A stretch of 64,000 nt of DNA from a virus (IMGVR_UViG_3300011008_000022); one strand, 5' to 3'. Shown: positions 15,013 to 28,521, counted from the stretch's first letter. Made by a program: numbers and translations. Notes: generated by a model not told the origin, from the sequence alone.

Positions 15013-15019
15013 TCGCCCA

Positions 15020-15115: not shown

Positions 15116-15121
15116 TTTCTA

Positions 15122-15156: not shown

Positions 15157-15339
15157 ATGGGATATACAAAATAATTCTTTTATCTTCTAAAAATGAATTA
15201 TTTTGCACACCCCAAAGTTAGTGTGCAGTGCGTGTCAAAAATTGCCACCGATTTGAGGGGTGCGGTGGTAGAGTGCTGCCCAAAATCGCTTGTAACTTAT
15301 TGAAAATCAGAGTAACCACCTCGAAAAAACAGTCCCATT

Positions 15340-15650: not shown

Positions 15651-15740
15651 GCTTTTATATATATAATAAGGTAAAACAAAGTATAATTTGTTTATAAGTG
15701 TTAAAAATTCGATTAAATACGAATTTATTTTGTTTTTTGT

Positions 15741-15772
15741 TTGGTGGTATCAAATTTTATTTTTACCTTTGC
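15741..15772 (+). promoter_or_regulatory. -33 TTTG / -7 TACCTTTG promoter
   Basis: tttgg...(20 nt)...tacctttg upstream of the 15826 gene. Confidence 0.6.
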
Positions 15773-15825
15773 AGCAGATTTAAAAAGTTATTCACCGCGC
15801 CACCGGCGCACAAAATTAAAAAATT

Positions 15826-16176: not shown

Positions 16177-16223
16177 AGCCTGGTTTCTCTCCTCATGTTA
16201 TAACCGTTTAATATTATTATATT

Positions 16224-16430
16224 ATGACTAATTATGCCCGCATCTATCGCGCCGAACTTCAGGAACTGAAGCCCGCACCCGCTTTTTATCGTTTCGCGCT
16301 GCGTCTCGTCATCGCTGCCGCCCGTATCGCTGACCGCTACCCGCGCACCGTTTCCGCTATCCTCTGGGCCGGCTCTCTCTGGGCTGTCGTTTATATCTTT
16401 TTAAATTATCGTTTTACTACTTATTTATAA
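16224..16430 (+). CDS. small membrane protein (68 aa)
   Basis: Two hydrophobic segments; tightly spaced with flanking genes. Confidence 0.55.
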   Translation: MTNYARIYRAELQELKPAPAFYRFALRLVIAAARIADRYPRTVSAILWAGSLWAVVYIFLNYRFTTYL

Positions 16431-16434
16431 AACT

Positions 16435-16770
16435 ATGAACACCACAAAGAACACCACCACCGCCGCCCCTGTTGCTGATTCTGAGGGCCGCCGCTGTTAT
16501 ACTTATATTATCGCCGTTTCTGGCCGTCTCTGGAGCCTGTGCGCTTCTGAATGGTGGGGAACCCCTGACGAAATGAGAACGAACGCCGCGAGCATGGCAA
16601 CCGCCGCCCGCATTTTCCGACACTCTGCCGCCGTTGCTGTCTATGAGCTGCGAAACGATGACTATTTATATTTTGTGCATGGTTGCGAGCTGCCAGGAAC
16701 CAACGACGCACCGGCCACCTTCCACCGCTACGCCCCGCCAGTGATCCGCCGCCAGTGTGCCAACAAATAA
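16435..16770 (+). CDS. hypothetical protein (111 aa)
   Basis: ATG 4 nt after previous stop. Confidence 0.6.
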   Translation: MNTTKNTTTAAPVADSEGRRCYTYIIAVSGRLWSLCASEWWGTPDEMRTNAASMATAARIFRHSAAVAVYELRNDDYLYFVHGCELPGTNDAPATFHRYAPPVIRRQCANK

Positions 16771-16822
16771 CCCCTATTTATAGTCCGTTTTATTATTCAC
16801 AGATTTTTAAAATTTTCCGATT

Positions 16823-19129
16823 ATGAAATACTTTGTAAATTTCCCCTATACTGCCGAGAGTTTAAAAAATGAGTTCCGCACCCTGTCTTTGAAGTTGCAC
16901 CCAGACACGGGAGGCGATGCCGAGGAGTTCGCCGCCATGATGAACGAATACGAGCAGATCGCCCGCAACCTGTCAGGAACTAAACAACACGCCCAGAGCG
17001 AAGCAGAACGCCAGGCAGAAGAAGCCCGCCGCCGTGAGGAGGAGGAAGAGCGCCGAGAGTGGGAAGCCTACCAGGAGCGCCAGCGCCAGGAACGGGAAGC
17101 AGAGCGCAAAGCAGAGGAAGAGCGCAAAGCTAAGGCCCGCCCCATCTACGAAAAGCGCTGCAAGAAATGGGCGCACCTCATGGAAGATTTAACCCCATTT
17201 ATAGAGGCTGAAAATAATGCCTATAAAAACGAGCGCCAGGCTGCCGAGACTTTCGGCTATCGTTCTGCAGAATATAAGGAGGCAGGCAAAGCCACGAAAG
17301 CCGCCAGAACTGCCACACATGCAGCCCGCCGCCGTAATCTCTTGAAGATGGCGCAAACAGCTTTCAAGGGTGTTAAATTCTCCCTTCGTTACGATAACGG
17401 CTGGGGCGGTGGTTTTATTATCGCATGGACTGACGGCCCAAGCCTGGAAGAGTTCAAGGCTGCAACCGATTACGATCTGTTTGTTTCAGTCTGGGACACC
17501 TTCGACGGTATGACAGACTGTGCCGACTATGAGCGGGCAGATTTTACAGACTTTGCCGATAAGTACAGCGGCCATCATGGAGAGGTGGAATTTGACCGTA
17601 CAATTAGCGACGAGAACAGGCAGAAAATGGCCGACGTTTTAAAGCGTCTTAATCCTGACTTTACAGACCCAGAGGCCCGCGAGCGTTACGACTGCAACAG
17701 CTGGGAAGATATCGCCGTCTTTATAGACGAGGAAAAAATCAGAGAATTTTTCCGTATCTTTGGCGCTGACTTTGACAGCGTGACCGATGAGCAGAAGAGA
17801 GCACAGCGCACAAGCCGCCACAACTTCCGCGACTATATGGACAGCCGCAAGACCTTAGCCGGTTGGATCAACGCCCTGGCCGACTTCATCACATTTAAAA
17901 CGGATGACGAGAAGAAGGCCGAGAAGCCCGCAGAGTTTGCCCCCCGTTATGGTGCCACCCTTCGCGCACTGTTTAAGCTCGTAGGCGGTCAGTCTGCCGC
18001 ATTCTGGCAGCGCGACCCCAAAACCCGCAAGAGTTCCCCGCTGTCATTGTCTGAACTCATCGAGGCCCTGGAACGTGGCGAGGCCGTAGCCTATGGAAAA
18101 AAACATGAGTACACCGACGCAGAAGGTAATATCGAGTCCGTAATTTATTGGGGTGTAAATAATGGCGGATATAAGGTACAAAAAGCCCGTGCCGAGAAGT
18201 TCGCCGCCGCTGGTTATACTCTCAGCAGTTCCGGCCATTCTTCCACCTATGCCGACGTAGAAATTACCGGCATAACTCCAGAGACTGCCGCCGCTCTTCG
18301 TGCTGAACTCGCAGACATCGAGAGACAGCGCCAGCAGTGGGAGACCAAACAGACCGCACAGAAGCCCCAGAACAGCGCCGAGACTGCCGAGCAGTCCAAC
18401 ACACAGCCCACCGACTCCGAGGCCGTCAGCGCTCCGCAAACAGTCGTAGCAGATGCCCCCGCCGATGGCTTGCAGCTCATCGACACCGCCGAGGGTGTGG
18501 CCGTCGTCTCTGAGGACTGGAAAACGACGTATTTTAATAAAAAGCACATCAAGGCCCACGGCTGCCACTGGAACAAGGAGGCGAAACGATGGGAAGCCAC
18601 CGACCCCGACGACGTGGCAAAGGTTCGCGCATGGTTTGCTCTTCGCACAGAAGAGCAGACCACCCCAGAGGCCGACACGTTAGAGGATGCCCAGAATATC
18701 ACAGAAAACGCCCAGGACAGCGCCGAGACTGTCGAGCAGTCCAACACACAGCCCACAGACTCCGAGGCCGTCAGCGAGGACGCACAGCAGCCCGCCAGCG
18801 TTTCCCCACTCTTCGAGGCAGTGGCCGACCTCTTCCGCACCTTTGCCGACATCATCCAGCAGGCCAAACGGTGGGAGGGCGTGACCATTCCAGCCGCCAC
18901 CCTCGAACGATGCGCACAGAACACCGCCGCCCGCCTCTCTGAGGTGTGCGCCTGTCTGGGCAGTCTCACGCCTGACAGCCGCGAACAGTTCGACGCGCTG
19001 GGTGTCATCTTCTGGACGCTCTCCGACAAGATCAAGACTGGCACCGACCCCGACACCCTCCAGAGTGCCACCGACTACGCCCGCGCCCAGCTCTTCGACC
19101 TCATCGAGCGCACACAAACAGAGAACTAG
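16823..19129 (+). CDS. J-domain (DnaJ-like) protein with charged coiled coil and large C-terminal extension
   Basis: N-terminus LKNEFRTLSLKLHPDTGGDAEEFAAMMNEYEQI carries the HPD signature of J domains; E/R/K-rich helix follows; 55-nt in-frame direct repeat (AETAEQSNTQPTDSEAVS twice). Confidence 0.8.
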   Translation: MKYFVNFPYTAESLKNEFRTLSLKLHPDTGGDAEEFAAMMNEYEQIARNLSGTKQHAQSEAERQAEEARRREEEEERREWEAYQERQRQEREAERKAEEERKAKARPIYEKRCKKWAHLMEDLTPFIEAENNAYKNERQAAETFGYRSAEYKEAGKATKAARTATHAARRRNLLKMAQTAFKGVKFSLRYDNGWGGGFIIAWTDGPSLEEFKAATDYDLFVSVWDTFDGMTDCADYERADFTDFADKYSGHHGEVEFDRTISDENRQKMADVLKRLNPDFTDPEARERYDCNSWEDIAVFIDEEKIREFFRIFGADFDSVTDEQKRAQRTSRHNFRDYMDSRKTLAGWINALADFITFKTDDEKKAEKPAEFAPRYGATLRALFKLVGGQSAAFWQRDPKTRKSSPLSLSELIEALERGEAVAYGKKHEYTDAEGNIESVIYWGVNNGGYKVQKARAEKFAAAGYTLSSSGHSSTYADVEITGITPETAAALRAELADIERQRQQWETKQTAQKPQNSAETAEQSNTQPTDSEAVSAPQTVVADAPADGLQLIDTAEGVAVVSEDWKTTYFNKKHIKAHGCHWNKEAKRWEATDPDDVAKVRAWFALRTEEQTTPEADTLEDAQNITENAQDSAETVEQSNTQPTDSEAVSEDAQQPASVSPLFEAVADLFRTFADIIQQAKRWEGVTIPAATLERCAQNTAARLSEVCACLGSLTPDSREQFDALGVIFWTLSDKIKTGTDPDTLQSATDYARAQLFDLIERTQTEN

Positions 19130-19270
19130 GCGCGAGCAGTCCGCGAGGCTGTCAGCTCTGACGACTCCGACCCACTGGAGAAGGCCGCTTGATATAGCGG
19201 CCTCCCCTTCCCCTCTCTTAATGTTATAGCACATCCCAAAAATCAGAAAATTTTAAAAATCTACAAAATC

Positions 19271-19522
19271 ATGGTTACAATTTCACAGAATGCCATCGCC
19301 ACCGTTAAACAGCTTAACGACCAACTTTTTGAAGCTGAGTGTGAACTGGAAGCCCAGCAGCGGGCAGTCTCTAAGTATCGCTATTATCTGGCAGCAGAAG
19401 CCAATCAGGAAACAGTCATGGATCTACGTGGTGCCATAAAGAACCTGCAGGGCTGTCAGCAGCGCGTCGATCATCTGCGCCAGCGTCTCACCGACACCCT
19501 CGAAAATATCTGGTCATTATAG
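19271..19522 (+). CDS. hypothetical protein (83 aa)
   Basis: Helical/coiled-coil-like sequence; ATG in A-rich context. Confidence 0.6.
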   Translation: MVTISQNAIATVKQLNDQLFEAECELEAQQRAVSKYRYYLAAEANQETVMDLRGAIKNLQGCQQRVDHLRQRLTDTLENIWSL

Positions 19523-19542
19523 ACCATCTCAAAAATCCCCGT

Positions 19543-19574
19543 TTTCATCATTTCATCGTTTCATCAATTCATTA
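19543..19574 (+). repeat. TTCATMA array before ATG 19579
   Basis: tttcatcatttcatcgtttcatcaattcatta. Confidence 0.8.
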
Positions 19575-19578
19575 AATT

Positions 19579-19827
19579 ATGGTCATCATCAACGGTCACA
19601 AGTTCTACGAGGTCCCTACCTCTTGCGGCACCTGTCCTTTCCTCCTCACTGGTAACACCTCCACCCCTGGCGTATCTACCGGCTACAGCAAAGGTCTGTG
19701 CGTCCAGTGGAACGAAACCCACCACACCTGGGCCAACATTCCCCGCCGCTGTTCTAAGCTCTTCCGCCGTGCTTTTGACCTCTACAATGACACCGGCGAG
19801 AATTTAGTTATCACTAAAAAAGAGTAA
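19579..19827 (+). CDS. hypothetical Cys-containing protein (82 aa)
   Basis: Start preceded by TTCATCA array 19543-19574. Confidence 0.6.
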   Translation: MVIINGHKFYEVPTSCGTCPFLLTGNTSTPGVSTGYSKGLCVQWNETHHTWANIPRRCSKLFRRAFDLYNDTGENLVITKKE

Positions 19828-19872
19828 AAAACCAACAAATTTCGATTTTATTTTAATTTTCCTGCAAAATTA

Positions 19873-19904
19873 TTTGGCAGTATCAAAATATATTCGTATC
19901 TTTG
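19873..19904 (+). promoter_or_regulatory. early promoter cassette copy 1 (-33 TTTG, -7 TATCTTTG)
   Basis: atatttggcagtatcaaaatatattcgtatctttgcacc. Confidence 0.7.
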
Positions 19905-19923
19905 CACCGACAAATAAAAGTTT

Positions 19924-19946
19924 AACCGAGCCACGAGGCTCACAAA
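19924..19946 (+). promoter_or_regulatory. conserved 5' leader hairpin (L1)
   Basis: aaccGAGCCacgaGGCTCacaaaa. Confidence 0.75.
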
Positions 19947-19959
19947 AAAGTATTTCATC

Positions 19960-20790
19960 ATGTTACAGACAGCAACAACTCAGGCACCATTTGCCGCAAT
20001 CAACATTCAGAACATCGCTAAACAGCGAGAGAACAAACAGGCTACCTTCTCTGCTATCATTCAGAACAACTGGGAAGCATGTAAGAACCGCTTTCGTGTT
20101 ACGTTCACCAATGGCACCACCGAGATCAAGCGCCTCTTTACTAACAGCGGAATGGTCTGCGAGTATGGCAAAGGCCGCCGTACCTATGGCCATTATGCCT
20201 ATATCGACAACTGGCAGAAGGTAGAACCTGTGAAGCCAGCCCCCAAATATAGTTATAGCATGTTCCACCGCAATACCACCAAGGCCGCCGCTCTCCTGGC
20301 TGCCTCTGGCTTGTGGCCCGAAATGCAGAAGCGCATGGCTGTTATGTCCCAGTTCTCCCAGTCTGAATATAACGAGATTATGGATATCTATCAGAAGAGC
20401 TGGGACTGCGACTATCGCGACACAGAGAAGCGTCAGGAACTGGAAAAGTCCTTCAACGACTTCTTCACCTCTCGTGGCACTACTCCCGACTACTACCACT
20501 TCAAGCAACTCAGCGAGAAGTCACAGATCATCAGCATCCCCTTCGGCAAAGATGGGAGTTATGAGCGCCGCATGGTTGCCAACCATTTAGAGCAGGCCCA
20601 GCAGTCCGCTGCCGACTATGACGATGGCTTTGGCGTTCGTTGGTATGGCAGCTATGATTACAGCGTCTCTGTCAGCAAGAAAGATGGTGTACTTCGTGGC
20701 TGGTACTCTGCCGAGTACAAAGGTTGTGGCAATGGCCATTATTACCTCCTACTCGATGCTACTCATGCCATCTATTGCGAAGACGATTGA
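19960..20790 (+). CDS. hypothetical early protein (276 aa)
   Basis: Downstream of promoter cassette (-7 box 19897-19904) and leader hairpin 19924-19946. Confidence 0.75.
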   Translation: MLQTATTQAPFAAINIQNIAKQRENKQATFSAIIQNNWEACKNRFRVTFTNGTTEIKRLFTNSGMVCEYGKGRRTYGHYAYIDNWQKVEPVKPAPKYSYSMFHRNTTKAAALLAASGLWPEMQKRMAVMSQFSQSEYNEIMDIYQKSWDCDYRDTEKRQELEKSFNDFFTSRGTTPDYYHFKQLSEKSQIISIPFGKDGSYERRMVANHLEQAQQSAADYDDGFGVRWYGSYDYSVSVSKKDGVLRGWYSAEYKGCGNGHYYLLLDATHAIYCEDD

Positions 20791-20791
20791 C

Positions 20792-20822
20792 CCACCGTGC
20801 CCAGCCTTTCTCGGCTGGGTCC
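20792..20822 (+). repeat. family-A hairpin, 1 nt after the stop codon
   Basis: ccaccgtgCCCAGCCtttctcGGCTGGGtcc. Confidence 0.9.
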
Positions 20823-20826
20823 CTCT

Positions 20827-20858
20827 TTTCATTCATTCATCAATTCATCAAATCATTA
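20827..20858 (+). repeat. TTCATMA array
   Basis: tttcattcattcatcaattcatcaaatcatta. Confidence 0.8.
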
Positions 20859-20880
20859 ACCGAGCTTTCAGGCTCACGAA
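20858..20880 (+). promoter_or_regulatory. conserved 5' leader hairpin (L2)
   Basis: aaccGAGCtttcagGCTCacgaaaa. Confidence 0.7.
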
Positions 20881-20893
20881 AAAAATCAAACTT

Positions 20894-21139
20894 ATGGATA
20901 TCAAAATCAAGAAAATTGTTTCCTGGATTTTCCCTTATTTCGGGAACGACCACATCATGCCCTATGGCTCTCTTCTCGTTACTGACGGAAAGACTGAGCG
21001 CGTATGCCATACCAAGGGCGACCGCTATCACGATAACGATGGCTATCAGTACATCACCTTCAATCGTCGCCGTTATGAAGTTCTCGCCTCTGGCAATCCA
21101 GCACGAGGCATGAAAATCTCTCTGCGCCCTGTTGCTTAA
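20894..21139 (+). CDS. hypothetical protein (81 aa)
   Basis: ATG 20894 (MDIKIKK) downstream of leader hairpin 20858-20880; the longer track ORF from 20618 overlaps the previous gene. Confidence 0.6.
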   Translation: MDIKIKKIVSWIFPYFGNDHIMPYGSLLVTDGKTERVCHTKGDRYHDNDGYQYITFNRRRYEVLASGNPARGMKISLRPVA

Positions 21140-21170
21140 TTCATCATTTCATCAATTCATCAATTCATCA
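21139..21170 (+). repeat. TTCATMA array before ATG 21175
   Basis: aattcatcatttcatcaattcatcaattcatca. Confidence 0.8.
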
Positions 21171-21174
21171 TATT

Positions 21175-21291
21175 ATGGCAAAGAATTATAAAGTCGAGAA
21201 TGGCAAGCATTTGAAAGCCATTAGAAGCCCTTATGATGGCCGTGTAGTCGGCTGGATAGATATAACTGAAAGTTCAACGAAAAACTCATAA
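21175..21291 (+). CDS. small hypothetical protein (38 aa)
   Basis: MAKNYKVENGKHLKAIRSPYDGRVVGWIDITESSTKNS; below the ORF-track cutoff; start preceded by TTCATCA array as for neighbouring genes. Confidence 0.4.
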   Translation: MAKNYKVENGKHLKAIRSPYDGRVVGWIDITESSTKNS

Positions 21292-21303
21292 ATTCGTCAA
21301 GTT

Positions 21304-21570
21304 ATGAAAGCAATGGAATCCTATCATTCTGGTACTGTCGGCTTCGATATTCTACACACAGATGTTGTCGAGGTAGAACGTCGTACAATTACGATTAAAA
21401 CCTATAATGGTAATATCACCAGACCAGGCAACAGAGTCATGCGCTGCCGTCACTGTGGAAATGAATGGGTGGAGTCTATCACAAGCCCCCAGGTTCTTTC
21501 TCAGGATGTGCTAAACGAACTCCATGAGTATTTCAGCGATTATACAGAATGTAAACAGAAAAAAGCATAA
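21304..21570 (+). CDS. hypothetical protein (88 aa)
   Basis: Contains CRHCG; ATG in A-rich context. Confidence 0.6.
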   Translation: MKAMESYHSGTVGFDILHTDVVEVERRTITIKTYNGNITRPGNRVMRCRHCGNEWVESITSPQVLSQDVLNELHEYFSDYTECKQKKA

Positions 21571-21587
21571 GTAAACCCGCCACAACT

Positions 21588-23096
21588 ATGAACATGTTTT
21601 CTTATAACTCCGATTTCTACCCCACCCCGAAAGAAGTTATTGCCCAGATGATGATGGGCGAAGATATAGTAGGCAAAACCATTCTCGAACCCTCTGCCGG
21701 TTCTGGCAATATCGTTGACTGGCTCAAAGAGAATGGAGTCAAGGAGGTCATCGCCTGCGAGAATGACCCTACCCTACTCCGCATTCTACGCGGAAAGTGT
21801 GACATCCTGGCTGAAGACTTCCTGACAGTCACCTCCGAACAGGTCAGCCACTGCGACTATATCGTAATGAACCCGCCCTTCTCTCATGGTGCCGAGCACA
21901 TTCTTCACGCCTTCGATATTGCCCCCGCTGGCTGCACCGTCGTGGCCCTCTGTAATAGCAGCAACTTTGACTCTTTCTACCGCAACAAGACCAAACAGCG
22001 CCTCGCCGAGACTATCGACCTCTACGGACAGCGCGAGTCGCTGGGTAATGTCTTCCACACTGCCGACCGTCAGACAGATGTCAACATCGAACTTATCAAG
22101 CTATACAAGGAGGGTGCCGGTGCCAGTGAGTTCGACGGTTATATCTTTGAGCAGTACGACTCAGACACTGCTGGCACTCAGGAAGGACTCATGCAATACA
22201 ACTTCGTGCGCGATATTGTGAACCGTTACGTCTCTGCTGTTCGCATGTTCGATGAAGTTATGGCTATGTCAAAGCGCATCAATGAGGTGGCCGACTTCTA
22301 CGACTTCCGCACCGTCACCGACCCTAAGACCGGCGAAACTCGCCAGGAGCCACAATACTATGGCGGACTGCCTATCACCTTTGGCGCTCAGACCAAGGGC
22401 GAACACCCCACCGCTATCAGTCACCAGCGCTATAAGCGAGAACTGCAGAAGCACTACTGGCACATCATTTTCCAGAAGCTCAACATGGAGAAGTATGCCA
22501 CCCGCGAACTCCGTGAGCAGATCAACCGCTTCATCGAGTCCCAGAAGTGCGCACCATTCACCATGAAGAATGTCTATCGCGTCATCGATATGGTCATCCA
22601 GACTAACGGACAGCGAATGCTTACCGCCCTGGAAGAAGCCTTCGACCTCATTTGCTCACTATCTGCCGAGAACTCCACCGCTGGCGAGAAATGGAAGACC
22701 AACGCTAACTATATGGTCAATCGCCGCTTCATCGTTGACTACATCACAGAGGGTTATTTCTATGGCTCCACCCGTCCAACTGTTGACTTCCCTTGTGGTG
22801 GCCGTACCGACCGCATGGAGGATGTCTGCAAGGCACTGTGCTACCTCACTGGACGCAATTACGACGAGATAGGCCGCCTAACTCAGGTAGGCCGTGGCCA
22901 ACAGTGGGGACAGTGGTTTGAGTGGGGCTTCTTCCGCTGCCGTGGCTATAAAAAGGGCACCATGCACTTTGAGTTCCTGGACGAAGACGTGTGGGCACGT
23001 TTCAATTACGAGGTAGCCGTCCAGAAGTCCAAGACAAAAGGCTGGGACCTCCCAAAGGTCACACCTAAAAAGTCGAAAAAAACAAAAGCCGCCTAA
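21588..23096 (+). CDS. N6-adenine DNA methyltransferase with DUF4942-like C-terminal domain
   Basis: FYPTP...ILEPSAGSGNI (SAM motif I) and IVMNPPF (motif IV, NPPF). Confidence 0.8.
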   Translation: MNMFSYNSDFYPTPKEVIAQMMMGEDIVGKTILEPSAGSGNIVDWLKENGVKEVIACENDPTLLRILRGKCDILAEDFLTVTSEQVSHCDYIVMNPPFSHGAEHILHAFDIAPAGCTVVALCNSSNFDSFYRNKTKQRLAETIDLYGQRESLGNVFHTADRQTDVNIELIKLYKEGAGASEFDGYIFEQYDSDTAGTQEGLMQYNFVRDIVNRYVSAVRMFDEVMAMSKRINEVADFYDFRTVTDPKTGETRQEPQYYGGLPITFGAQTKGEHPTAISHQRYKRELQKHYWHIIFQKLNMEKYATRELREQINRFIESQKCAPFTMKNVYRVIDMVIQTNGQRMLTALEEAFDLICSLSAENSTAGEKWKTNANYMVNRRFIVDYITEGYFYGSTRPTVDFPCGGRTDRMEDVCKALCYLTGRNYDEIGRLTQVGRGQQWGQWFEWGFFRCRGYKKGTMHFEFLDEDVWARFNYEVAVQKSKTKGWDLPKVTPKKSKKTKAA

Positions 23097-23107
23097 CCCC
23101 TACCCGC

Positions 23108-23130
23108 CCCCACTGGTTCCCCCAGTGGGG
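23108..23130 (+). repeat. family-A-like hairpin variant after the methyltransferase gene
   Basis: CCCCACTGGttcccCCAGTGGGG. Confidence 0.7.
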
Positions 23131-23136
23131 TGCTCT

Positions 23137-23167
23137 GTTTCGTTTATTGTCAGGCGATTTTATCGCC
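23137..23167 (+). repeat. family-C motif
   Basis: gtttcgtttattgtcaGGCGATtttATCGCC. Confidence 0.85.
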
Positions 23168-23212
23168 AAAACAAAAAAAAATCACTAAAAATCAAAATTT
23201 TATCGAAAAATA

Positions 23213-23244
23213 TTTGGTAATATCAAATTATATTCGTATCTTTG
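23213..23244 (+). promoter_or_regulatory. early promoter cassette copy 2
   Basis: atatttggtaatatcaaattatattcgtatctttgcacc. Confidence 0.7.
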
Positions 23245-23263
23245 CACCGACAAATAAAAGTTT

Positions 23264-23286
23264 AACCGAGGGAATCCCTCACAAAA
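23264..23286 (+). promoter_or_regulatory. conserved 5' leader hairpin (L3)
   Basis: aaccGAGGGaatCCCTCacaaaa. Confidence 0.75.
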
Positions 23287-23300
23287 AACATTTTCAGCGT

Positions 23301-23735
23301 ATGACAATCCAAGAATTTAAGAACGAAGCCGCCCGCCGAGGTCACACCTTCGACAATAGCGACAATGCCTCTCGTGCATGGTCTCGCTCATGGGGCCTTA
23401 CCTGGTGGCGCAATGTATGGTTCTATCGTGAGTACCGTCTGGGTGCTTTCACCTATCGTACTGGTCGCGTCCGCCATCGCCATCACTCTTACACTAACAC
23501 CGAGTATCGTATTAACGACTCTGAGGTTTCACAACGTGAGTTCCTAAAGGCTCTCGACACCTTTCAGGCTCCCGCCCTCTCTGCCGATGAGCAGTCCTAC
23601 ATCCAGCAGCAAGAGCAGCTTGCGCGTCAGGCTGCAGCCCGTCGTGCTGCATGGCACCGCTCCCACCCTTCACGCTCTCGCCGTCAGACCTCTTCCGATC
23701 ATGCCGTGCAACTCACATTCAATTTCGCTGCATGA
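23301..23735 (+). CDS. hypothetical early protein (144 aa)
   Basis: ATG 23301 downstream of promoter cassette (-7 box 23237-23244) and leader hairpin 23264-23286; the track start 23130 would span the promoter. Confidence 0.65.
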   Translation: MTIQEFKNEAARRGHTFDNSDNASRAWSRSWGLTWWRNVWFYREYRLGAFTYRTGRVRHRHHSYTNTEYRINDSEVSQREFLKALDTFQAPALSADEQSYIQQQEQLARQAAARRAAWHRSHPSRSRRQTSSDHAVQLTFNFAA

Positions 23736-23766
23736 TTTCATCAATTCATAAATTCATCTATTCACC
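23736..23766 (+). repeat. TTCATMA array
   Basis: tttcatcaattcataaattcatctattcacc. Confidence 0.8.
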
Positions 23767-23792
23767 GTTTCACTAAAAAACACTAAACAATT

Positions 23793-24359
23793 ATGGATAA
23801 ATTTAATTTTGGAGTTATCAGACCATATATGGTCGAAGAACAGCGCATGATAAATCGTTATGCTAACGAGAATGAGGGCACTCTGCCCATGCTGCATTCA
23901 CCTCATATCAAGTTGGGTCACTATGACACTCAGACTATCGCCTCTGTTGCTATGCGTGGTCTTACCCTGAATGGCTGGACGTGTAAGCAAACCTATAAGT
24001 GGTGGCAGGACTATCGCCGCCACCATTCTGCCCTCTATCCTGGCTCATGCTCTTCTGAGGTCTCTTGTGGTCCTAAGATTTTCGAGCGCGTATGGAACAC
24101 GCTGGCTGAATGGCTGCCATATCATCTGCCTAAGATTACCAACAGCCGGTGGTACTATATGAACATCACCGACTGGGACGGACGCAGACGCAAGTGGTAT
24201 TTCGACCGCCCAGACGATGCCACCGCCGTGCATTATTTCTTGCACCATAAAAAATCAGATCACGATATCAACGAATATCATTCCCTTTATTCTGTCACCT
24301 GGGACGGTCAGAATTTCGTCAACCCGAAACGCCTTTCAGTCTCACACAAAGCTGCATAA
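23793..24359 (+). CDS. hypothetical protein (188 aa)
   Basis: Preceded by TTCATCA array and a conserved leader TTCACCGTTTCACTAAAAAACA..CAATTATG. Confidence 0.7.
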   Translation: MDKFNFGVIRPYMVEEQRMINRYANENEGTLPMLHSPHIKLGHYDTQTIASVAMRGLTLNGWTCKQTYKWWQDYRRHHSALYPGSCSSEVSCGPKIFERVWNTLAEWLPYHLPKITNSRWYYMNITDWDGRRRKWYFDRPDDATAVHYFLHHKKSDHDINEYHSLYSVTWDGQNFVNPKRLSVSHKAA

Positions 24360-24395
24360 ATTCATTCATTCATTATTTCATCAATTCATCAATTC
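24358..24395 (+). repeat. TTCATMA array running into ATG 24396
   Basis: aaattcattcattcattatttcatcaattcatcaattc. Confidence 0.8.
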
Positions 24396-24740
24396 ATGTC
24401 ACACTATCTCTACACATTCACCCTCTCCACAGCCACCGGCGACCATGGCCACCAGTACCCGCTACTCACCGCCAACGAATACCCCTGGATGAACGTCCAG
24501 ATTATCCCCACACCCGACTCTCAGCGCTCCCTCATTCTCGAAGCGCTCAACAAGCGGGGTGGGGGAGTGGCCACCGTCTCAGGGCGCACCGACTTCGTGG
24601 CTATCCAGGCCGGTGGCGGTTCCGAAGAGCACCCCACCATCCCTATCACCCGCCAGAACTACCAACATGTCGCCGCCATTCTCCGCGACTGCCTCCAAGC
24701 AGCTGCCGACCACTGGGCCGCTACTCACCCCGTCGAGTAG
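24396..24740 (+). CDS. hypothetical protein (114 aa)
   Basis: ATG embedded in the last unit of TTCATCA array 24358-24395. Confidence 0.6.
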   Translation: MSHYLYTFTLSTATGDHGHQYPLLTANEYPWMNVQIIPTPDSQRSLILEALNKRGGGVATVSGRTDFVAIQAGGGSEEHPTIPITRQNYQHVAAILRDCLQAAADHWAATHPVE

Positions 24741-24744
24741 AGCG

Positions 24745-24764
24745 CCCAGCGGTTCCCTTGCTGG
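24745..24764 (+). repeat. degenerate family-A hairpin
   Basis: cCCAGCggttcccttGCTGG. Confidence 0.55.
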
Positions 24765-24770
24765 TCCTCT

Positions 24771-24801
24771 GTCCCGTCTCTTTTAGGGCGATTTTATCGC
24801 C
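24771..24801 (+). repeat. family-C motif
   Basis: gtcccgtctcttttagGGCGATtttATCGCC. Confidence 0.8.
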
Positions 24802-24845
24802 AAAACAAAAAAATTAGCCAAAAATCAAATTTTTCTCGAAAAATA

Positions 24846-24877
24846 TTTGGCAGTATCAAAATATATTCGTATCTTTG
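24846..24877 (+). promoter_or_regulatory. early promoter cassette copy 3
   Basis: atatttggcagtatcaaaatatattcgtatctttgcagc. Confidence 0.7.
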
Positions 24878-24903
24878 CAGCGTAAAACAATAAATAATAT
24901 GTT

Positions 24904-24927
24904 TCACCGAGGGTCAGCCCTCACAAA
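24904..24927 (+). promoter_or_regulatory. conserved 5' leader hairpin (L4)
   Basis: caccGAGGGtcagCCCTCacaaa. Confidence 0.75.
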
Positions 24928-24939
24928 TAAACAAAGAAT

Positions 24940-25356
24940 ATGAAAGTAACAATCGACAATTTCAACAACCAACTGGAAGTCACCGTTCAGGGCGACACCA
25001 TGACCGTAGCGTTAGAACGTGGCCACTTCGTGCTATCTGATGCAGTCAATACTGAGTGCTCTTTTGAGACAGAAGAAGACTACGCCAGACTGTTGCACGA
25101 TGCAGCTCTGTCGTTAGTAACGCTGGGTACAGACGTTACCAGTTTCGATGAGTGGGAGAACCTGTTTAGCTCATGGGCCGACGATGAGCCTGGCGACGAT
25201 GCAGATCCCGAAGACCTCGAAGCCTATCACAAGTGCCTGGCGAATGACCGTGCCGACTTTGAGCGCGAACAGGATGCCGCCCGCAACTGGCAGTCACTGA
25301 CTGACCTCGATGCAAAAGCCATCTGGGACTACCTCGAAAACCGCTGGCAAATCTAA
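24940..25356 (+). CDS. highly acidic hypothetical protein (138 aa)
   Basis: Downstream of promoter cassette (-7 box 24870-24877) and leader hairpin 24904-24927; D/E-rich throughout. Confidence 0.7.
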   Translation: MKVTIDNFNNQLEVTVQGDTMTVALERGHFVLSDAVNTECSFETEEDYARLLHDAALSLVTLGTDVTSFDEWENLFSSWADDEPGDDADPEDLEAYHKCLANDRADFEREQDAARNWQSLTDLDAKAIWDYLENRWQI

Positions 25357-25398
25357 TCATTCATCAATTCATACATTCATAAAATCATCAATTCATTA
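25356..25398 (+). repeat. TTCATMA array
   Basis: atcattcatcaattcatacattcataaaatcatcaattcatta. Confidence 0.8.
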
Positions 25399-25417
25399 AA
25401 TATAGGAGAAACAAATT

Positions 25418-25750
25418 ATGAATAAAGAGATTACAATGGAGTTCGTTGCCGGCACCGTTGCCGACTTCCTGAACGCAGTCAATGAGGGTGAACAGTTCGC
25501 CTACGAGAATGCCGTACATACTTTCAAGAATAGCACAGAGCTGAACGATGAGCAGGAAGCTATGTTGAGAAATTCCCTGTACCATTTGGAAATTATGGAA
25601 AACAATATCCCTGATGTTGAAACTATGAAGCCAATCGTAGCATGTGAGTGTCACATCATCTTCTGGACGCTTGCTGCAGACTGGCATTGCATCAATACTC
25701 GCACCCTGGGAGATAGTGACGAGTATATATCACAGAACCCGAAGAACTAA
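25418..25750 (+). CDS. acidic hypothetical protein (110 aa)
   Basis: Preceded by TTCATCA array 25356-25398. Confidence 0.65.
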   Translation: MNKEITMEFVAGTVADFLNAVNEGEQFAYENAVHTFKNSTELNDEQEAMLRNSLYHLEIMENNIPDVETMKPIVACECHIIFWTLAADWHCINTRTLGDSDEYISQNPKN

Positions 25751-25807
25751 CCTCCCGTTATAGCACCCCCAGTTATTCACCGTTTCACTAAAAAACAGAA
25801 AACAATT

Positions 25808-27442
25808 ATGACACATTCAGATTATATCAACGCCGTTGGCCGCGCCAACTACTACTCCCACATGTACTATGTCGCATCCGCTCCCGTTGTGAGCGATGCC
25901 GAGTTTGATGCCCTCGTCGCTCAGATCGAGCAGTACGAACGCCTCAATCCCTCACACATTCTCCCAGACAGTCCCACCCAGCAGGTAGGCTCCGACCTCA
26001 ATGGCAATGGCCGTATCGTCCACCGCACCCCTATGCTCTCCTGTCAGAAGGCTCAGGACATCCAGAAGGTTGCTTCGTGGATCAACAAGACCAACCAGCG
26101 CATGAACGCCCTCACCGGCGACAACCACACTGGCGGTTACAAGCTCGTAGCCATGTGGAAGTACGACGGCATTTCTTGCTCTCTCGTCTATCAGGATGGC
26201 CAACTCATCAGCGCTGCCACTCGTGGCGATGGTAGGGTAGGGCAGGACATCACCGCCCACGCCCTCTGCATCCCCTCCATCCCTCAGCAGCTCCGCGAGA
26301 CGGGTGCCACCTACTCCCTCGCCGGTCGTATTGAGGTCCGTGGCGAAATCGTCTGCAGCAAGCGCAACCTCCACCTACTTTCCACTCGTTACACCGATTG
26401 CCGCACAGCAGCTTCCGCTCTCTGCAACCAGTCAGTGCCCGACGCTATCGATCTCGCCATGCTCGACTTCATCCCCTGGGATGCCTATATCGACGACGCT
26501 ATCAGCAGTCAGATTCAGTTCTCTTGCACCCCGCTCGGCTACCCCTGGCATAAGTTCGACTTCCTCCATCGCCTTTGCTTCATCCACCGTCCTGACGTAT
26601 GGACCGCCCACACTCTCGACGATGTTCAGCAGCTGCTGGCGAAGCGTGAGGCAGAACGTGCCGCTTTCGACTTCCCCGTTGATGGTATCGTCCTCCGCAT
26701 CATGCACGATGACTATTTCCGCGCCCTGGGTGCCACCGCACACCATCCTCATGGCTCTATCGCCTACAAGTTCGCACCCGCTAAGGCCATCACCACATGC
26801 CGCCGTATAGAGGTGACTGTAGGTAAGACTGGCAAGCGCACCCCCGTCGCTTACTTCGACTTTGTGACCCTCCTCGACCGCGAAGTACATTCCGCCTCCC
26901 TCTATTCAGAGAAGACAGCCAACGACCTCGGCATCTATCCAGGTGCCACCATCGAGGTAGGTCTGTCAAACGACATCACCCCAAAGGTCTTTCGCGTTAT
27001 AGCCACTGCCGGCGCTTCTGTTTCCTCCGTAGGCGATGGCTCTGCCGTCGCTCCTTCCCAGCCGCTCTCGGCTGGGGTAGGGGACAATGTTACGGAAAAT
27101 AACCCCTTATCTCCCGCCTCTGACGAAGCTCCCGCCGATTGTCCCGTATGTGGCGACACTATTGCCACCGATGACGAAGAGGAAGAAGTCTGGCTCGCCC
27201 CCTCTCTCTTCTCCGACGAAGCTCCCGCCACCGCTGCCCCTGTCGCCTCTGACAAAGAAGCCGCTCCTACCACAGCGCTCGGTGGTTCTCCCACCGATGA
27301 ACCCGCCACCCCTCACCATAGCACCACCGCCGCAGTTCTCGCCACTGTCGCCTGTGCTGCAGTCCTCTGTTGCTTTGGTGCAGTAGTCCTGGGTGCTGCC
27401 GTCTTCTGTCTGCCCCTCATAGCCGGCACCCTCCGCGTATAG
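25808..27442 (+). CDS. NAD-dependent DNA ligase-like protein lacking HhH/BRCT, with hydrophobic C-terminal tail
   Basis: Domain Ia-like YYSHMYYVASAPVVSDAEFDAL...DSPTQQVGS; adenylation site WKYDGISCSL; ATRGDGRVGQDIT; IEVRGEI; SIAYKFAP; OB-like VGKTGKRTPVAYF. Only a CPVCG remnant of the Zn finger remains. The protein ends in about 35 hydrophobic residues. Confidence 0.8.
   Translation: MTHSDYINAVGRANYYSHMYYVASAPVVSDAEFDALVAQIEQYERLNPSHILPDSPTQQVGSDLNGNGRIVHRTPMLSCQKAQDIQKVASWINKTNQRMNALTGDNHTGGYKLVAMWKYDGISCSLVYQDGQLISAATRGDGRVGQDITAHALCIPSIPQQLRETGATYSLAGRIEVRGEIVCSKRNLHLLSTRYTDCRTAASALCNQSVPDAIDLAMLDFIPWDAYIDDAISSQIQFSCTPLGYPWHKFDFLHRLCFIHRPDVWTAHTLDDVQQLLAKREAERAAFDFPVDGIVLRIMHDDYFRALGATAHHPHGSIAYKFAPAKAITTCRRIEVTVGKTGKRTPVAYFDFVTLLDREVHSASLYSEKTANDLGIYPGATIEVGLSNDITPKVFRVIATAGASVSSVGDGSAVAPSQPLSAGVGDNVTENNPLSPASDEAPADCPVCGDTIATDDEEEEVWLAPSLFSDEAPATAAPVASDKEAAPTTALGGSPTDEPATPHHSTTAAVLATVACAAVLCCFGAVVLGAAVFCLPLIAGTLRV
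27057..27076 (+). repeat. family-A hairpin, in frame in the ligase gene
   Basis: CCCAGCCGctctCGGCTGGG (peptide PSQPLSAG). Confidence 0.85.
27279..27297 (+). repeat. family-A-type hairpin variant, in frame in the ligase gene
   Basis: TCGGTGGttctcCCACCGA (peptide LGGSPTD). Confidence 0.65.
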
Positions 27443-27457
27443 CGGATCTCCCGCTGG
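27441..27457 (+). repeat. short family-A-like hairpin overlapping the ligase stop codon
   Basis: AGCGGatctcCCGCTgg. Confidence 0.5.
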
Positions 27458-27468
27458 TCATCCGGCTC

Positions 27469-27496
27469 GTTCCGCATGTGGCTATGTTATAGCCAT
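27469..27496 (+). repeat. family-B hairpin, stem variant
   Basis: gttccgcatgTGGCTATgttATAGCCAt. Confidence 0.75.
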
Positions 27497-27511
27497 CCTC
27501 CCAAATCACAA

Positions 27512-27540
27512 ATTTCATCAATTCATCAAATCATCATTCA
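27512..27540 (+). repeat. TTCATMA array before ATG 27541
   Basis: atttcatcaattcatcaaatcatcattca. Confidence 0.8.
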
Positions 27541-28359
27541 ATGGAAAATCAATTCAACACCGTTCAGCCCAACCCCATCTGGGATGGCGAACTTTCACAG
27601 TATAGTCAGCACTTCATGTCGGGTATGCAGTTCCACGCACCCTTCATCGTCACCAAGTATCAGCAGCGTTCCGACCTCGGCGACTGCATCATCAGCACCC
27701 GTCCGCCTTATCTCGTTTGCAAGATCCACGGCTTCAAGACAGCAGCTGCTGCCGGACGCACCGACAATCCCAAGCTGGTGGCCATGGCCGAACGTGAGGA
27801 ACAGGCTCGTGTCGAATACCTCCAGCAGCGCCAGCAGGCGTTCCGCAATCGTATTGAAGCCGACCGTCATGGCATCACCATCCGCCAGCTCATTGAACAG
27901 CAGGGACGTGTCTATGACGAAGAACTCGATGAGCCGCGCATCGTCTGCAAGGTGCCTGGTCTTAATGTCTATCTCGAACTCGTAGGCTGCCTCCAGCCGC
28001 TTTCTGATGAAGACCCCGAATGGCTCGGCGACAATGGCATCCTCGCCACGCTCGACTCCATGATGCAGTGGGCACCAAACATCTACGACCGCGCCGATCG
28101 CCGTGCTCGTGCCTCTCAGTTCTCCGACATTCAGCCCCTCGACTCCTGGATTGACCCCTACAATCCTGACCTCCGCCCCTGGATGCCTCGCAAACGTGGC
28201 CTCGGTCATACTTTCATCGACCCCAGCCGCCGCCCTGATCTGCTTTACTCCAAGGCACCGCAAGGCGCTGCCGACTATGGCATGATACGCACCATCAAGG
28301 AGGCCACCGCCCACAATGCCGCCCAGGGCATAGCCCCCGAAGACTATGGCCACCGTTAG
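27541..28359 (+). CDS. hypothetical protein (272 aa)
   Basis: Preceded by TTCATCA array 27512-27540. Confidence 0.7.
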   Translation: MENQFNTVQPNPIWDGELSQYSQHFMSGMQFHAPFIVTKYQQRSDLGDCIISTRPPYLVCKIHGFKTAAAAGRTDNPKLVAMAEREEQARVEYLQQRQQAFRNRIEADRHGITIRQLIEQQGRVYDEELDEPRIVCKVPGLNVYLELVGCLQPLSDEDPEWLGDNGILATLDSMMQWAPNIYDRADRRARASQFSDIQPLDSWIDPYNPDLRPWMPRKRGLGHTFIDPSRRPDLLYSKAPQGAADYGMIRTIKEATAHNAAQGIAPEDYGHR

Positions 28360-28398
28360 CCCCTATATGTCGTTATAGCGCACCTCAAAAATCACAAA

Positions 28399-28449
28399 AT
28401 TTCATCATTTCATCAATTCATACATTCATATATTCATAAATTCATAAAA
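28399..28449 (+). repeat. TTCATMA array (longest, about 6 units) upstream of the parA promoter
   Basis: atttcatcatttcatcaattcatacattcatatattcataaattcataaaa. Confidence 0.8.
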
Positions 28450-28464
28450 TAAACATCATTTTAT

Positions 28465-28495
28465 TTTGTAAAATCAAAATTTATTTTTATCTTTG
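28465..28495 (+). promoter_or_regulatory. parA promoter (-33 TTTG, 19 nt spacer, -7 TATCTTTG)
   Basis: ttttgtaaaatcaaaatttatttttatctttgcacc. Confidence 0.65.
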
Positions 28496-28521
28496 CACCA
28501 AAATTATCAAATTATATCATT

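What the first reader, a model, noticed from the sequence alone, without database searches (positions are those of the whole stretch)
19924..24927. Conserved leader hairpin AACCGAG-[variable stem-loop]-CTCACAAAAA about 20-30 nt downstream of early promoters
Four copies (19924, 20858, 23264, 24904) share the single-stranded flanks ACCGAG and CTCAC(A/G)AAA. The 4-5 bp stem and the loop differ but remain paired: GAGCC/GGCTC, GAGC/GCTC and GAGGG/CCCTC (twice, with different loops). Three copies lie just downstream of near-identical -33/-7 promoter cassettes, so they would sit at or near the 5' end of early transcripts. Conserved flanks with a covarying small hairpin recall lambda nut (boxA plus boxB) and other antiterminator-loading or mRNA-stabilising 5' elements. 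This genome is studded with GC hairpins, some inside genes, so a processive antitermination system loaded at these leaders would make sense. That link is speculative.
Basis: partly seen in the sequence, partly recalled or inferred. Interest (0 to 1): 0.6.

Follow-up and report, generated by a model that had tools for sequence, protein, structure and literature searches.

The report
Start-codon-linked leader hairpin, Bacteroidota phages
A small RNA hairpin with fixed flanking letters sits 14-20 bases before the start codons of one block of genes in this Prevotella phage, and it recurs in unrelated phages of the same bacterial phylum, so it is most likely an undescribed signal that helps host ribosomes use these messages in bacteria that lack the usual ribosome-binding site.

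Summary
The window holds five strong copies, not four: ACC starts at 15794, 19925, 20859, 23265 and 24906, all on the + strand. There are also two degenerate copies. The consensus is UU(A/C)ACC, then a 5-bp stem with a 3-6 nt loop, then ACAAA.

When sites are selected by flanks alone, 31 of 40 form the 5-bp helix, against 0.7% after shuffling. All five pairs covary, with at least 13 different stems and about 39 different loops.

The element is tied to the start codon. In 66 of 68 distinct contexts the stem ends 14-20 nt before the ATG. It is not tied to a promoter: a third of contexts have none nearby. In whole phage genomes it is confined to one 3-12 kb, one-strand gene block.

It also occurs in phage lineages that share almost no proteins, in a gut microvirus (with a larger hairpin), and upstream of about nine chromosomal Bacteroidota genes. 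It is otherwise not found in 150 sampled host genomes and matches no Rfam family.

The lambda nut / antitermination reading is poorly supported. The loop is hypervariable, there is no boxA, and the element is coupled to the ATG.

Best reading (about 0.5): a cis-acting 5'-UTR module that uses host machinery and marks the 5' edge of the Shine-Dalgarno-less ribosome landing site, affecting translation and/or mRNA protection.

Other agents in this scan noted similar start-linked leader structures in other Bacteroidota phages.

The parts
15740..15771 (+). Bacteroidota-type promoter (TTTG-N20-TACCTTTG) upstream of leader copy 1
   Evidence: Pattern TTTGN{17,23}TANNTTTG gave 9 hits against 0.83 expected. 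Sequence context shown.
15791..15815 (+). Leader hairpin copy 1: TTCACC-GCGCC-acc-GGCGC-ACAAAA. The stem ends 16 nt before the ATG at 15826 (116-aa gene).
   Evidence: 35.9 bits. RNAfold gives it as the only structure, -8.6 kcal/mol.
19873..19904 (+). Promoter cassette (TTTG-N20-TATCTTTG) upstream of leader copy 2
19922..19947 (+). Leader hairpin copy 2: TTAACC-GAGCC-acga-GGCTC-ACAAAA. The stem ends 18 nt before the ATG at 19960 (276-aa gene).
   Evidence: (43.7 bits)
20799..20820 (+). Terminator-like GC hairpin followed by a T-rich tail, after the 276-aa gene and upstream of the promoter-less copy 3
20856..20881 (+). Leader hairpin copy 3: TTAACC-GAGCT-ttca-GGCTC-ACGAAA. It has no promoter nearby. 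The stem ends 18 nt before the ATG at 20894 (81-aa gene).
   Evidence: (35.7 bits)
23213..23244 (+). Promoter cassette upstream of leader copy 4
23262..23286 (+). Leader hairpin copy 4: TTAACC-GAGGG-aat-CCCTC-ACAAAA. The stem ends 20 nt before the ATG at 23301 (144-aa gene).
   Evidence: (41.4 bits). The loop differs in every close relative.
23758..23789 (+). Degenerate, hairpin-poor variant leader TTCACCGTTTCACTAAAAAACACTAAACAATT, before the ATG at 23793 (188-aa gene)
   Evidence: 11.7 bits. Nearly invariant in relatives.
24846..24877 (+). Promoter cassette upstream of leader copy 5
24903..24928 (+). Leader hairpin copy 5: TTCACC-GAGGG-tcag-CCCTC-ACAAAT. The stem ends 17 nt before the ATG at 24940 (138-aa gene).
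   Evidence: (37.9 bits)
25773..25804 (+). Second copy of the variant leader TTCACCGTTTCACTAAAAAACAGAAAACAATT, before the ATG at 25808 (NAD-dependent DNA ligase). Ligase orthologues in distant relatives carry full hairpin copies with unrelated stems.
   Evidence: Pfam ligase domains.

Best explanation
The element is a cis-acting RNA module in the 5' untranslated leader: UU(A/C)ACC, a stable 5-bp hairpin, then an A-rich single-stranded tract beginning ACAAA that runs to the start codon.

It works with host machinery alone. The hairpin sits at the 5' edge of the Shine-Dalgarno-less ribosome landing site of Bacteroidota; its last stem base is at -15 to -21. That leaves the A-rich -11 to -14 tract and the start codon unstructured.

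The most likely effect is to fix and insulate the ribosome-binding site, and possibly to dock on the 30S platform. It may also block 5'-to-3' decay or RNase scanning into the message. The result would be strong, context-independent expression of one block of host-RNAP-transcribed accessory or early genes.

The promoter-leader unit behaves as a portable cassette that has spread among unrelated Bacteroidota phages.

Shown here: the structure, its covariation, its fixed spacing to the ATG, its restriction to one gene block, its spread across lineages, and the lack of shared phage proteins.

Inferred: that the RNA and not the DNA is the active form, the position of the transcription start, and the effect on translation or stability.
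For: 1. The hairpin is real.
- Selecting sites by flanks only, 31 of 40 distinct sites have 5 closing pairs, against 0.7% after shuffling the interior.
- In the genome-wide scan, 11 of 12 hits pair where 25% is expected.
- All 5 pairs covary, with no support when the 3' partner columns are slid by 1-3 positions.
- Orthologous leaders carry unrelated stems. The 116-aa gene has GCGCC, GAGCG or GAGTC. The ligase has GATTT, AAGTT or GCGC(C). In the second phage family (G161 and contig L182), the corresponding leader has GAGCC or AAACC.

2. It is coupled to the ATG. The stem ends 14-20 nt before the ATG in 66 of 68 distinct contexts, with a mode of 17-18. The distance from the -7 promoter box varies (19-52 nt), and 22 of 68 contexts have no such box within 60 nt.

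3. The spacer looks like a Bacteroidota ribosome-binding site. It is 57% A and 7% G, with A at -14 and -13 in 49-50 of 53 spacers and A at -3 in 34 of 53. RNAfold predicts the hairpin as the only stable structure in each leader.

4. Published experiments in Prevotella bryantii (PMC3155529, read) fit this placement.
- Weak structure near the start codon cuts translation about five-fold.
- A -9 kcal/mol hairpin inserted at -21 does not inhibit (1.34 +/- 0.06 relative protein, mRNA unchanged).
- Bacteroidetes show AT enrichment at -13, proposed there as an S1 target.

5. Host machinery is the likely partner.
- The motif occurs in three phage lineages that share almost no proteins: G001 (about 100 kb, the nearest relative of the window phage), G161 (37 kb) and G165 (61 kb).
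- It occurs in a 5.9-kb microvirus, with the same promoter geometry, the same TTAACC flank and 17 nt to the ATG, though its 3' flank is an A-run, not ACAAA.
- It occurs before about nine chromosomal genes in Bacteroidia, Flavobacteriia and Cytophagia.

6. It is strand-specific and confined to one 3-12 kb block in complete phage genomes.
Against: - There are no RNA data.
- A purely structural role does not explain why the 5' flank UU(A/C)ACC and the lower stem G-A-G/C-U-C are so conserved.
- If the element simply boosts host translation, its near absence from host genomes is odd. None of 150 other sampled Bacteroidota genomes had a match, and the flank-only pattern was no more frequent than its reversed control.
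- Restriction to one gene block hints at co-regulation, not a general enhancer.
- The predicted primary 5' end lies 12-21 nt upstream of the hairpin. That is too far for a classical 5'-terminal stabiliser unless the RNA is processed.
Confidence: 0.5

Rival explanations
1. It is an operator or handle for a trans-acting factor. A host or phage RNA-binding protein, endoribonuclease or small RNA recognises the conserved flanks plus the lower stem. It then co-regulates the whole block after transcription. Examples would be shut-off of early genes, as with T4 RegA or RegB, or cleavage in UUA/ACC to leave a 5'-hairpin-protected mRNA, as with RNase Y at the Bacillus cggR-gapA transcript.
For: - The single-stranded flanks and the G-A-G/C-U-C base of the stem are sequence-conserved, while the top of the stem and the loop are free.
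- The element is restricted to one co-oriented gene block.
- It is rare in host genomes.
- Copies lie before internal cistrons, where processing would create monocistronic messages with only a 3-nt 5' tail.
Against: - Lineages carrying the motif share no plausible regulator. G161 against G001 gives only three weak matches to 198-448 aa proteins; G165 against G001 gives one; G161 against G165 gives none.
- A 5.9-kb microvirus with seven annotated features carries the same 5' flank and spacing.
- No sequence complementary to the flanks was found in the window beyond chance.
- A global host regulator would be expected to have many host targets, and none were found.
Confidence: 0.25
2. It is a nut- or put-like site. 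The nascent hairpin plus its flanks would load an antitermination factor, or modify RNA polymerase directly, so that transcription reads through the GC hairpins downstream.
For: - Promoter-proximal copies lie upstream of terminator-like hairpins at 20799-20820 and 23108-23130.
- The genes at 20894-23096 have no promoter of their own, so they need read-through.
Against: - The loop is hypervariable in length and sequence.
- There is no boxA.
- The spacing to the ATG is tight.
- A third of copies are promoter-less and lie just before internal cistrons, one of them just after a terminator.
- The close relative G001 carries tandem copies.
- There are chromosomal copies before single host genes.
- No shared N-like protein exists between lineages.
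- The element is far smaller than the two-stem, roughly 65-nt put RNA (own knowledge).
Confidence: 0.07
3. It acts at the DNA level. The inverted repeat with fixed flanks would be a recombination boundary for cassette shuffling, as with PeSL elements, or a hairpin-type promoter for a phage RNA polymerase, as with N4. Under this reading it is not an RNA signal.
For: - The promoter-leader cassettes are near-identical repeats within each genome, for example the 23153-23290 and 24787-24930 regions, and they precede non-homologous genes.
- The motif has spread across unrelated phages.
- N4 early promoters are hairpins with 5-7 bp stems and 3-nt loops (own knowledge).
Against: - It is strictly strand-specific and always lies on the coding strand at a fixed distance from the ATG.
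- Stems differ between copies within one genome, which reduces homology at the supposed crossover point.
- Most copies already have a host-type promoter.
- Chromosomal host genes and a microvirus carry it without any phage RNA polymerase.
Confidence: 0.08

Closest known systems
Start-Associated Sequences (SAS/ESAS) of Cluster K mycobacteriophages (PMC3203893, read)
   Same: Both are short asymmetric motifs repeated many times in one orientation. Both lie immediately upstream of the start codons of non-homologous genes. Both are confined to the non-structural part of the genome, conserved across subclusters, and essentially absent from the host genome. ESAS adds an inverted repeat with a variable spacer. 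The function of SAS/ESAS is also unknown and is thought to concern translation initiation.
   Different: SAS lies 3-7 bp from the start codon and contains a Shine-Dalgarno core (AGGAG). The present motif ends 14-20 nt upstream, contains no obligatory SD, and belongs to an SD-less phylum. There is no sequence similarity. Here the hairpin stem covaries freely.
Lambda nut site (boxA + boxB) and HK022 put RNA (own knowledge)
   Same: Both are small promoter-proximal RNA hairpins with adjacent conserved single-stranded sequence in phage early transcripts, and both have 5-bp stems that can covary.
   Different: The boxB loop is conserved and is the recognition element, whereas here the loop is the most variable part. 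Nut sites occur once per operon and are not tied to start codons. There is no boxA here and no shared N-like protein. Put is a two-stem RNA of about 65 nt.
PeSL (promoter-early stem-loop) cassettes of T4-type phages (PMC2839356, abstract read)
   Same: Both are repeated small regulatory cassettes that combine a strong host-type promoter with a stem-loop. Both flank non-essential or novel genes in plastic genome regions and are plausible substrates for modular shuffling.
   Different: In PeSL the stem-loop is a transcription terminator. Here the hairpin lies downstream of the promoter, inside the leader, is followed by an A-tract and not a U-tract, and is spaced from the ATG.
SD-independent structured leaders and translational operators: E. 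coli rpsA leader, T4 gene 32 and gene 43 operators (own knowledge)
   Same: In each, a structured element lies just 5' of an unstructured A/U-rich ribosome-binding region and controls or enhances initiation without relying on SD pairing.
   Different: Those elements are larger (three hairpins, a pseudoknot, or a hairpin with an 8-nt loop). Each is specific to one gene and is bound by that gene's own product, or by S1, with conserved loops. The present element is a minimal 5-bp hairpin reused before many unrelated genes.
5'-terminal stabiliser hairpins: E. coli ompA leader, and the RNase Y-processed gapA mRNA of B. subtilis (own knowledge)
   Same: Both are stable hairpins in the 5' UTR that could block 5'-end-dependent decay. 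After a cut in the 5' flank, only ACC would precede the stem.
   Different: The predicted primary 5' end is 12-21 nt upstream of the stem. No processing has been shown. Stabilisers do not normally show a fixed distance to the start codon or conserved flanks.

Membership tests
Lambda-type nut site (boxA/boxB) | A conserved boxB loop (GNRA-like pentaloop) recognised by an N-type peptide | tested here: not met
   About 39 different loops of 3-6 nt occur in 68 contexts. The loop differs between near-identical relatives at the same locus.
Lambda-type nut site (boxA/boxB) | A conserved boxA sequence 5' of the hairpin | tested here: not met
   The 5' flank is U-U-(A/C)-A-C-C in all copies. It has no resemblance to the boxA consensus; that comparison rests on my own knowledge.
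Lambda-type nut site (boxA/boxB) | One site per operon, placed relative to the promoter and terminators and not relative to start codons | tested here: not met
   66 of 68 stems end 14-20 nt before an ATG, and 22 of 68 have no -7 box within 60 nt. Copies also precede internal cistrons.
Lambda-type nut site (boxA/boxB) | A cognate N-like antiterminator encoded by the phage | tested here: inconclusive
   The lineages G001, G161 and G165 share no small protein. A very divergent arginine-rich peptide could escape BLAST.
HK022 put RNA | A two-stem RNA of about 65 nt that acts on RNA polymerase without protein factors | tested here: not met
   Each leader has a single 5-bp hairpin and is otherwise predicted to be unstructured.
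Rfam families (any) | A match to a curated covariance model | tested here: not met
   cmscan of 15000-29000 at E <= 1 returned only one chance snoRNA hit elsewhere in the stretch.
Cluster K mycobacteriophage SAS/ESAS | [quoted passage not shown] | tested here: not met
   The sequence and spacing are different. The resemblance is in genomic behaviour only.
PeSL cassettes | The stem-loop acts as a transcription terminator next to an early promoter | tested here: not met
   The hairpin lies downstream of the promoter and is followed by ACAAAA, with no U-tract on either strand.
5'-terminal stabiliser hairpin | [quoted passage not shown] | not testable with these tools
   The predicted transcription start is 12-21 nt upstream of the ACC, judged from -7 box spacing.
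Translational operator or enhancer of an SD-less ribosome-binding site | A structured element directly abutting an unstructured A-rich initiation region at a fixed distance from the start codon | tested here: met
   and consistent with the Prevotella bryantii reporter data in PMC3155529. An effect on translation itself was not tested.

The most novel reading that the evidence does not exclude
The hairpin with its UU(A/C)ACC and ACAAA flanks is a phylum-specific, structure-dependent ribosome-recruitment signal. It would stand in for the Shine-Dalgarno interaction on Bacteroidota ribosomes, whose anti-SD is sequestered. Phages as different as 100-kb phage-plasmids, 37-kb tailed phages and microviruses would have spread it as a portable cassette to capture host ribosomes for their first-expressed genes.
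Probability: 0.2. Interest if true: 0.8.

Novelty: new variant of a known kind. Interest (0 to 1): 0.6.

Why it matters
How Bacteroidota choose and tune start codons without Shine-Dalgarno pairing is still an open question. So is how their phages take over gene expression.

This is a compact motif of about 25 nt. It is strongly constrained, always sits at the 5' edge of the ribosome landing site, and is reused by unrelated phages. That makes it a concrete handle that can be tested by mutation.

If it raises or insulates expression, it would also be a useful standard 5'-UTR part for engineering Bacteroides and Prevotella. If it is a regulator's target, it would define a phage early-gene regulon.

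It is also a candidate new RNA family: it matches nothing in Rfam 15.

Tried and rejected
- **Whole genome of the window.** It is not held. I used the nearest record, G001, and IMG/VR relatives instead.
- **Rfam.** No family matched.
- **Extended helix or internal loop between the U-rich 5' flank and the A-rich 3' flank.** Pairing at offsets 0 and 1 equals the shuffle mean. Offset 2 is marginal, with 10 of 1000 shuffles reaching it, and I did not pursue it. The extension is therefore unsupported.
- **Pseudoknot, as other agents reported for other leaders.** The loops vary in length and sequence while the flanks are constant, so no loop-flank pairing can be conserved (by inspection).
- **A trans RNA complementary to both flanks.** The count of candidate sites in the window was not above chance.
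- **A phage-encoded factor shared by motif-bearing lineages.** None was found.
- **General host use of the motif.** No match was found in the 150 other sampled Bacteroidota genomes. The flank-only pattern matched its reversed control in four host genomes.
- **The DUF4942 methyltransferase as a marker to collect relatives.** The gene is far more widespread than the motif: only 8 of the 32 loci searched carry it.
- **Function of the genes in the block.** Pfam and PHROGs gave almost nothing beyond the ligase, the DUF4942 methylase and a J-domain/LPD29 protein.
- **Literature.** Searches by sequence, on RbpB and on the P_BfP1E6 phage promoter turned up no description of this element.

Full report
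**Observation**

Printing what follows each Bacteroidota-type promoter in the window (pattern TTTG-N17-23-TAnnTTTG: 9 hits against 0.83 expected) revealed a fifth copy behind the promoter at 15740. It reads TTCACC-GCGCC-acc-GGCGC-ACAAAA, and its stem shares nothing with the GAG/CTC stems.

A generic scan for ACC, a 5-bp stem, a 3-7 nt loop and AC finds exactly these five sites in 64 kb. All are on the + strand and none is on the - strand.

A covariance model built from 32 distinct instances scores the five at 36-44 bits. The next best hit scores 13 bits.

Two weak hits, at 23758 and 25773, turn out to be a second, almost hairpin-less leader type: TTCACCGTTTCACTAAAAAACA..AAACAATTATG. It is itself nearly invariant in relatives.

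Each leader is predicted to fold into the hairpin (-6 to -8.6 kcal/mol) and nothing else.

**Is the hairpin selected?**

I avoided selecting by pairing. Across the phage loci I picked sites by flanks alone: T[TA][AC]ACC, then 13-17 nt, then AC[AG]AA. Of 40 distinct sites, 31 have five consecutive closing pairs and 2 have four. After shuffling the interiors, 0.7% do.

In a scan of 185,579 species genomes with TTAACCGAG-SS-N3-6-SS-CTCACAAA, 11 of 12 hits pair at the two free positions, where 25% is expected. Nine of the 12 are Bacteroidota.

On the curated alignment all five pairs show double changes, and the signal disappears when the 3' partner columns are slid by 1-3 positions. That alignment was selected for pairing, so only the comparison with the slid versions carries weight.

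Orthologous leaders carry unrelated stems:
- The 116-aa gene has GCGCC (window), GAGCG (L073, 69% aa identity) or GAGTC (G001).
- Ligase orthologues at 41-50% aa identity have GATTT/AAATC, AAGTT/AACTT or GCGC/GCGC.
- In an unrelated phage family, the corresponding leader has GAGCC/GGCTC in one member and AAACC/GGTTT in another.

I counted at least 13 stem types and about 39 loops.

Among near-identical relatives, the 125-nt promoter-leader of the 144-aa gene differs by 0-3 bases outside the loop. The loop itself reads AAT, CAT, GTAG, TCATT or ATGA.

**What the element is tied to**

In 68 distinct contexts the stem ends 14-20 nt before the ATG of an ORF of at least 40 aa in 66 cases, with a mode of 17-18 nt. 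The distance from the -7 promoter box is 19-22 nt, 27-31 nt, or larger. In 22 contexts there is no -7 box within 60 nt.

In the window, copy 3 (20859) has no promoter and lies about 40 nt after a terminator-like hairpin.

The spacer between stem and ATG is 57% A and 7% G. A occupies -14 and -13 in 49-50 of 53 spacers and -3 in 34 of 53. This is the A-rich, structure-free initiation region described for Bacteroidetes.

Accetto and Avgustin (PMC3155529) showed three relevant things in Prevotella bryantii. A -5.2 kcal/mol structure near the start codon cuts protein about five-fold. A -9 kcal/mol hairpin inserted at -21 does not inhibit (1.34 +/- 0.06 relative protein, mRNA unchanged). There is a -13 AT enrichment, which they proposed as an S1 target. 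The natural hairpins sit exactly at that permissive boundary.

**Distribution**

In complete or near-complete relatives the motif is confined to one co-oriented block:
- G001: 7 matches at 15.4-25.2 kb of 101.9 kb.
- G007: 8 matches at 0.4-12.4 kb of 106.7 kb.
- G163: 5 matches at 91.5-100.8 kb of 101.1 kb.

All 35 matches in the loci collected by the methyltransferase gene are on the gene strand.

Other promoters in the window, at 28465, 42605(-) and 44763, lack the motif. It is therefore not a general requirement.

The block encodes mostly unknown proteins. Those with any annotation are a DUF4942 methyltransferase, a J-domain/LPD29 protein and an NAD-dependent ligase.

Outside this family the motif occurs, again behind Bacteroidota-type promoters and 14-18 nt before an ATG, in the following:
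- A 37-kb complete phage (G161) and its relatives (L013, L094, L182).
- A 61-kb complete, SD-less phage (G165).
- Contigs L104 and L109.

G161 against G001 shares only three weak protein matches. G165 against G001 shares one. G161 against G165 shares none.

A gut microvirus (OM869559.1) has the same promoter geometry and the same TTAACC flank. Its hairpin is larger (8 bp, -16.6 kcal/mol), its 3' flank is an A-run and not ACAAA, and its stem ends 17 nt before the ATG.

Chromosomal copies lie before ordinary host genes, including lipoproteins, secreted proteins and an SPFH protein. They occur in Prevotella, uncultured Bacteroidales, Algoriphagus, Roseivirga, Myroides and Paenimyroides.

Such host copies are rare. 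In four host genomes the flank-only pattern is no commoner than its reversed control.

One 'genome' hit, G003 contig C218 (95.6 kb, 6 matches), is a phage-plasmid relative that was binned into a MAG.

**Interpretation**

The nut-like reading fails on its defining features. The loop is not conserved, there is no boxA, the site is not placed once per operon, and no shared N-like protein exists.

Three observations point to a cis-acting leader module read by host machinery at the 5' edge of the ribosome landing site. Spacing to the ATG is tight. The Bacteroidota-type A-rich spacer is present. The motif occurs in protein-unrelated phages, a microvirus and a few host genes.

Whether its main effect is on initiation (positioning, insulation, docking on the platform) or on mRNA survival (a roadblock to decay, possibly after a cut in the 5' flank) cannot be decided from sequence.

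Three things remain unexplained by a purely structural role: the strong conservation of UU(A/C)ACC and of the G-A-G/C-U-C stem base, the restriction to one gene block, and the rarity in hosts. These keep a trans-factor (operator or processing) model alive at about 0.25.

The cassette-like repetition of promoter plus leader before non-homologous genes resembles PeSL cassettes (PMC2839356). The start-linked, one-orientation, host-absent behaviour resembles the SAS/ESAS of Cluster K mycobacteriophages (PMC3203893). Neither is a sequence relative or an architectural relative.

**Earlier notes in this scan**

Other agents reported start-codon-linked leader hairpins or mini-pseudoknots in other Bacteroidota phages and likewise rejected antitermination. 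I used those notes only as leads to the two papers above. They are not independent evidence.

**Limits**

Transcription starts are inferred from promoter geometry. Part of the instance set was ascertained with a GAG/CTC-containing pattern, which inflates the apparent conservation of the stem base. Counts in host genomes come from capped searches.

Noticed in passing
window 23761-23795 and 25776-25810: There is a second leader type with little or no hairpin: TTCACCGTTTCACTAAAAAACA(C/G)(T/A)AAACAATTATG. It is almost invariant across the window clade and the L154/L155 clade and precedes non-homologous genes (a 188-aa protein, the ligase and another gene). It shares the TTCACC start of the hairpin leader.
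   Followed up: partly
window + strand: 12729, 15137, 19559, 20827, 21139, 23736, 24360, 25359, 27513, 28400, 28424, 61109: Runs of TTCAT(C/A/T)A-type 8-mers lie in intergenic spacers. There are 12 runs on the + strand and none on the - strand. They often sit directly upstream of cistrons or of the hairpin leader, and may be a third leader or spacer module.
   Followed up: no
window 23273-23275 and the same site in L001, L002, L003, L004, L015 and L069: The hairpin loop is a hotspot for mutation or indels. It reads AAT, CAT, GTAG, TCATT or ATGA in relatives whose surrounding 125 nt differ by only 0-3 bases.
   Followed up: partly
L060 (the G001 contig), about 2020-2110 on the reverse strand; G001:C1:25131-25240: The close relative G001 carries a tandem array of the leader motif, with a 39-nt unit (three copies with stem GAGG/CCTC and loop GCGCGAAA, plus a final GAGTC copy), upstream of the 116-aa gene. 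Only the last copy is at the usual distance from the ATG.
   Followed up: no
L194 (OM869559.1, Sigmofec microvirus) 325-420: A 5.9-kb gut microvirus carries the same promoter geometry and the same TTAACC flank. Its hairpin is larger (8 bp), its 3' flank is an A-run, and the stem ends 17 nt before the ATG of a small hypothetical gene. This suggests the leader cassette is shared across viral realms that infect Bacteroidota.
   Followed up: partly
window 23153-23167 and 24787-24801: An identical GGCGATTTTATCGCC hairpin followed by an A-run lies about 45 nt upstream of two of the promoter cassettes and is part of the repeated unit of about 94 bp.
   Followed up: no
window 20799-23130: The genes from 20894 to 23096 (81-aa, 38-aa and 88-aa proteins and the DUF4942 methyltransferase) have no recognisable promoter and lie between two terminator-like hairpins. 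Their expression seems to need read-through of the hairpin at 20799.
   Followed up: no
G003 contig C218 (JAZMZT010000218.1; loci L127, L136, L141-L146): A 95.6-kb contig binned into a Bacteroidaceae MAG carries six leader-motif copies and orthologues of the 116-aa, methyltransferase and ligase genes. It is probably a related phage-plasmid and not chromosome.
   Followed up: partly
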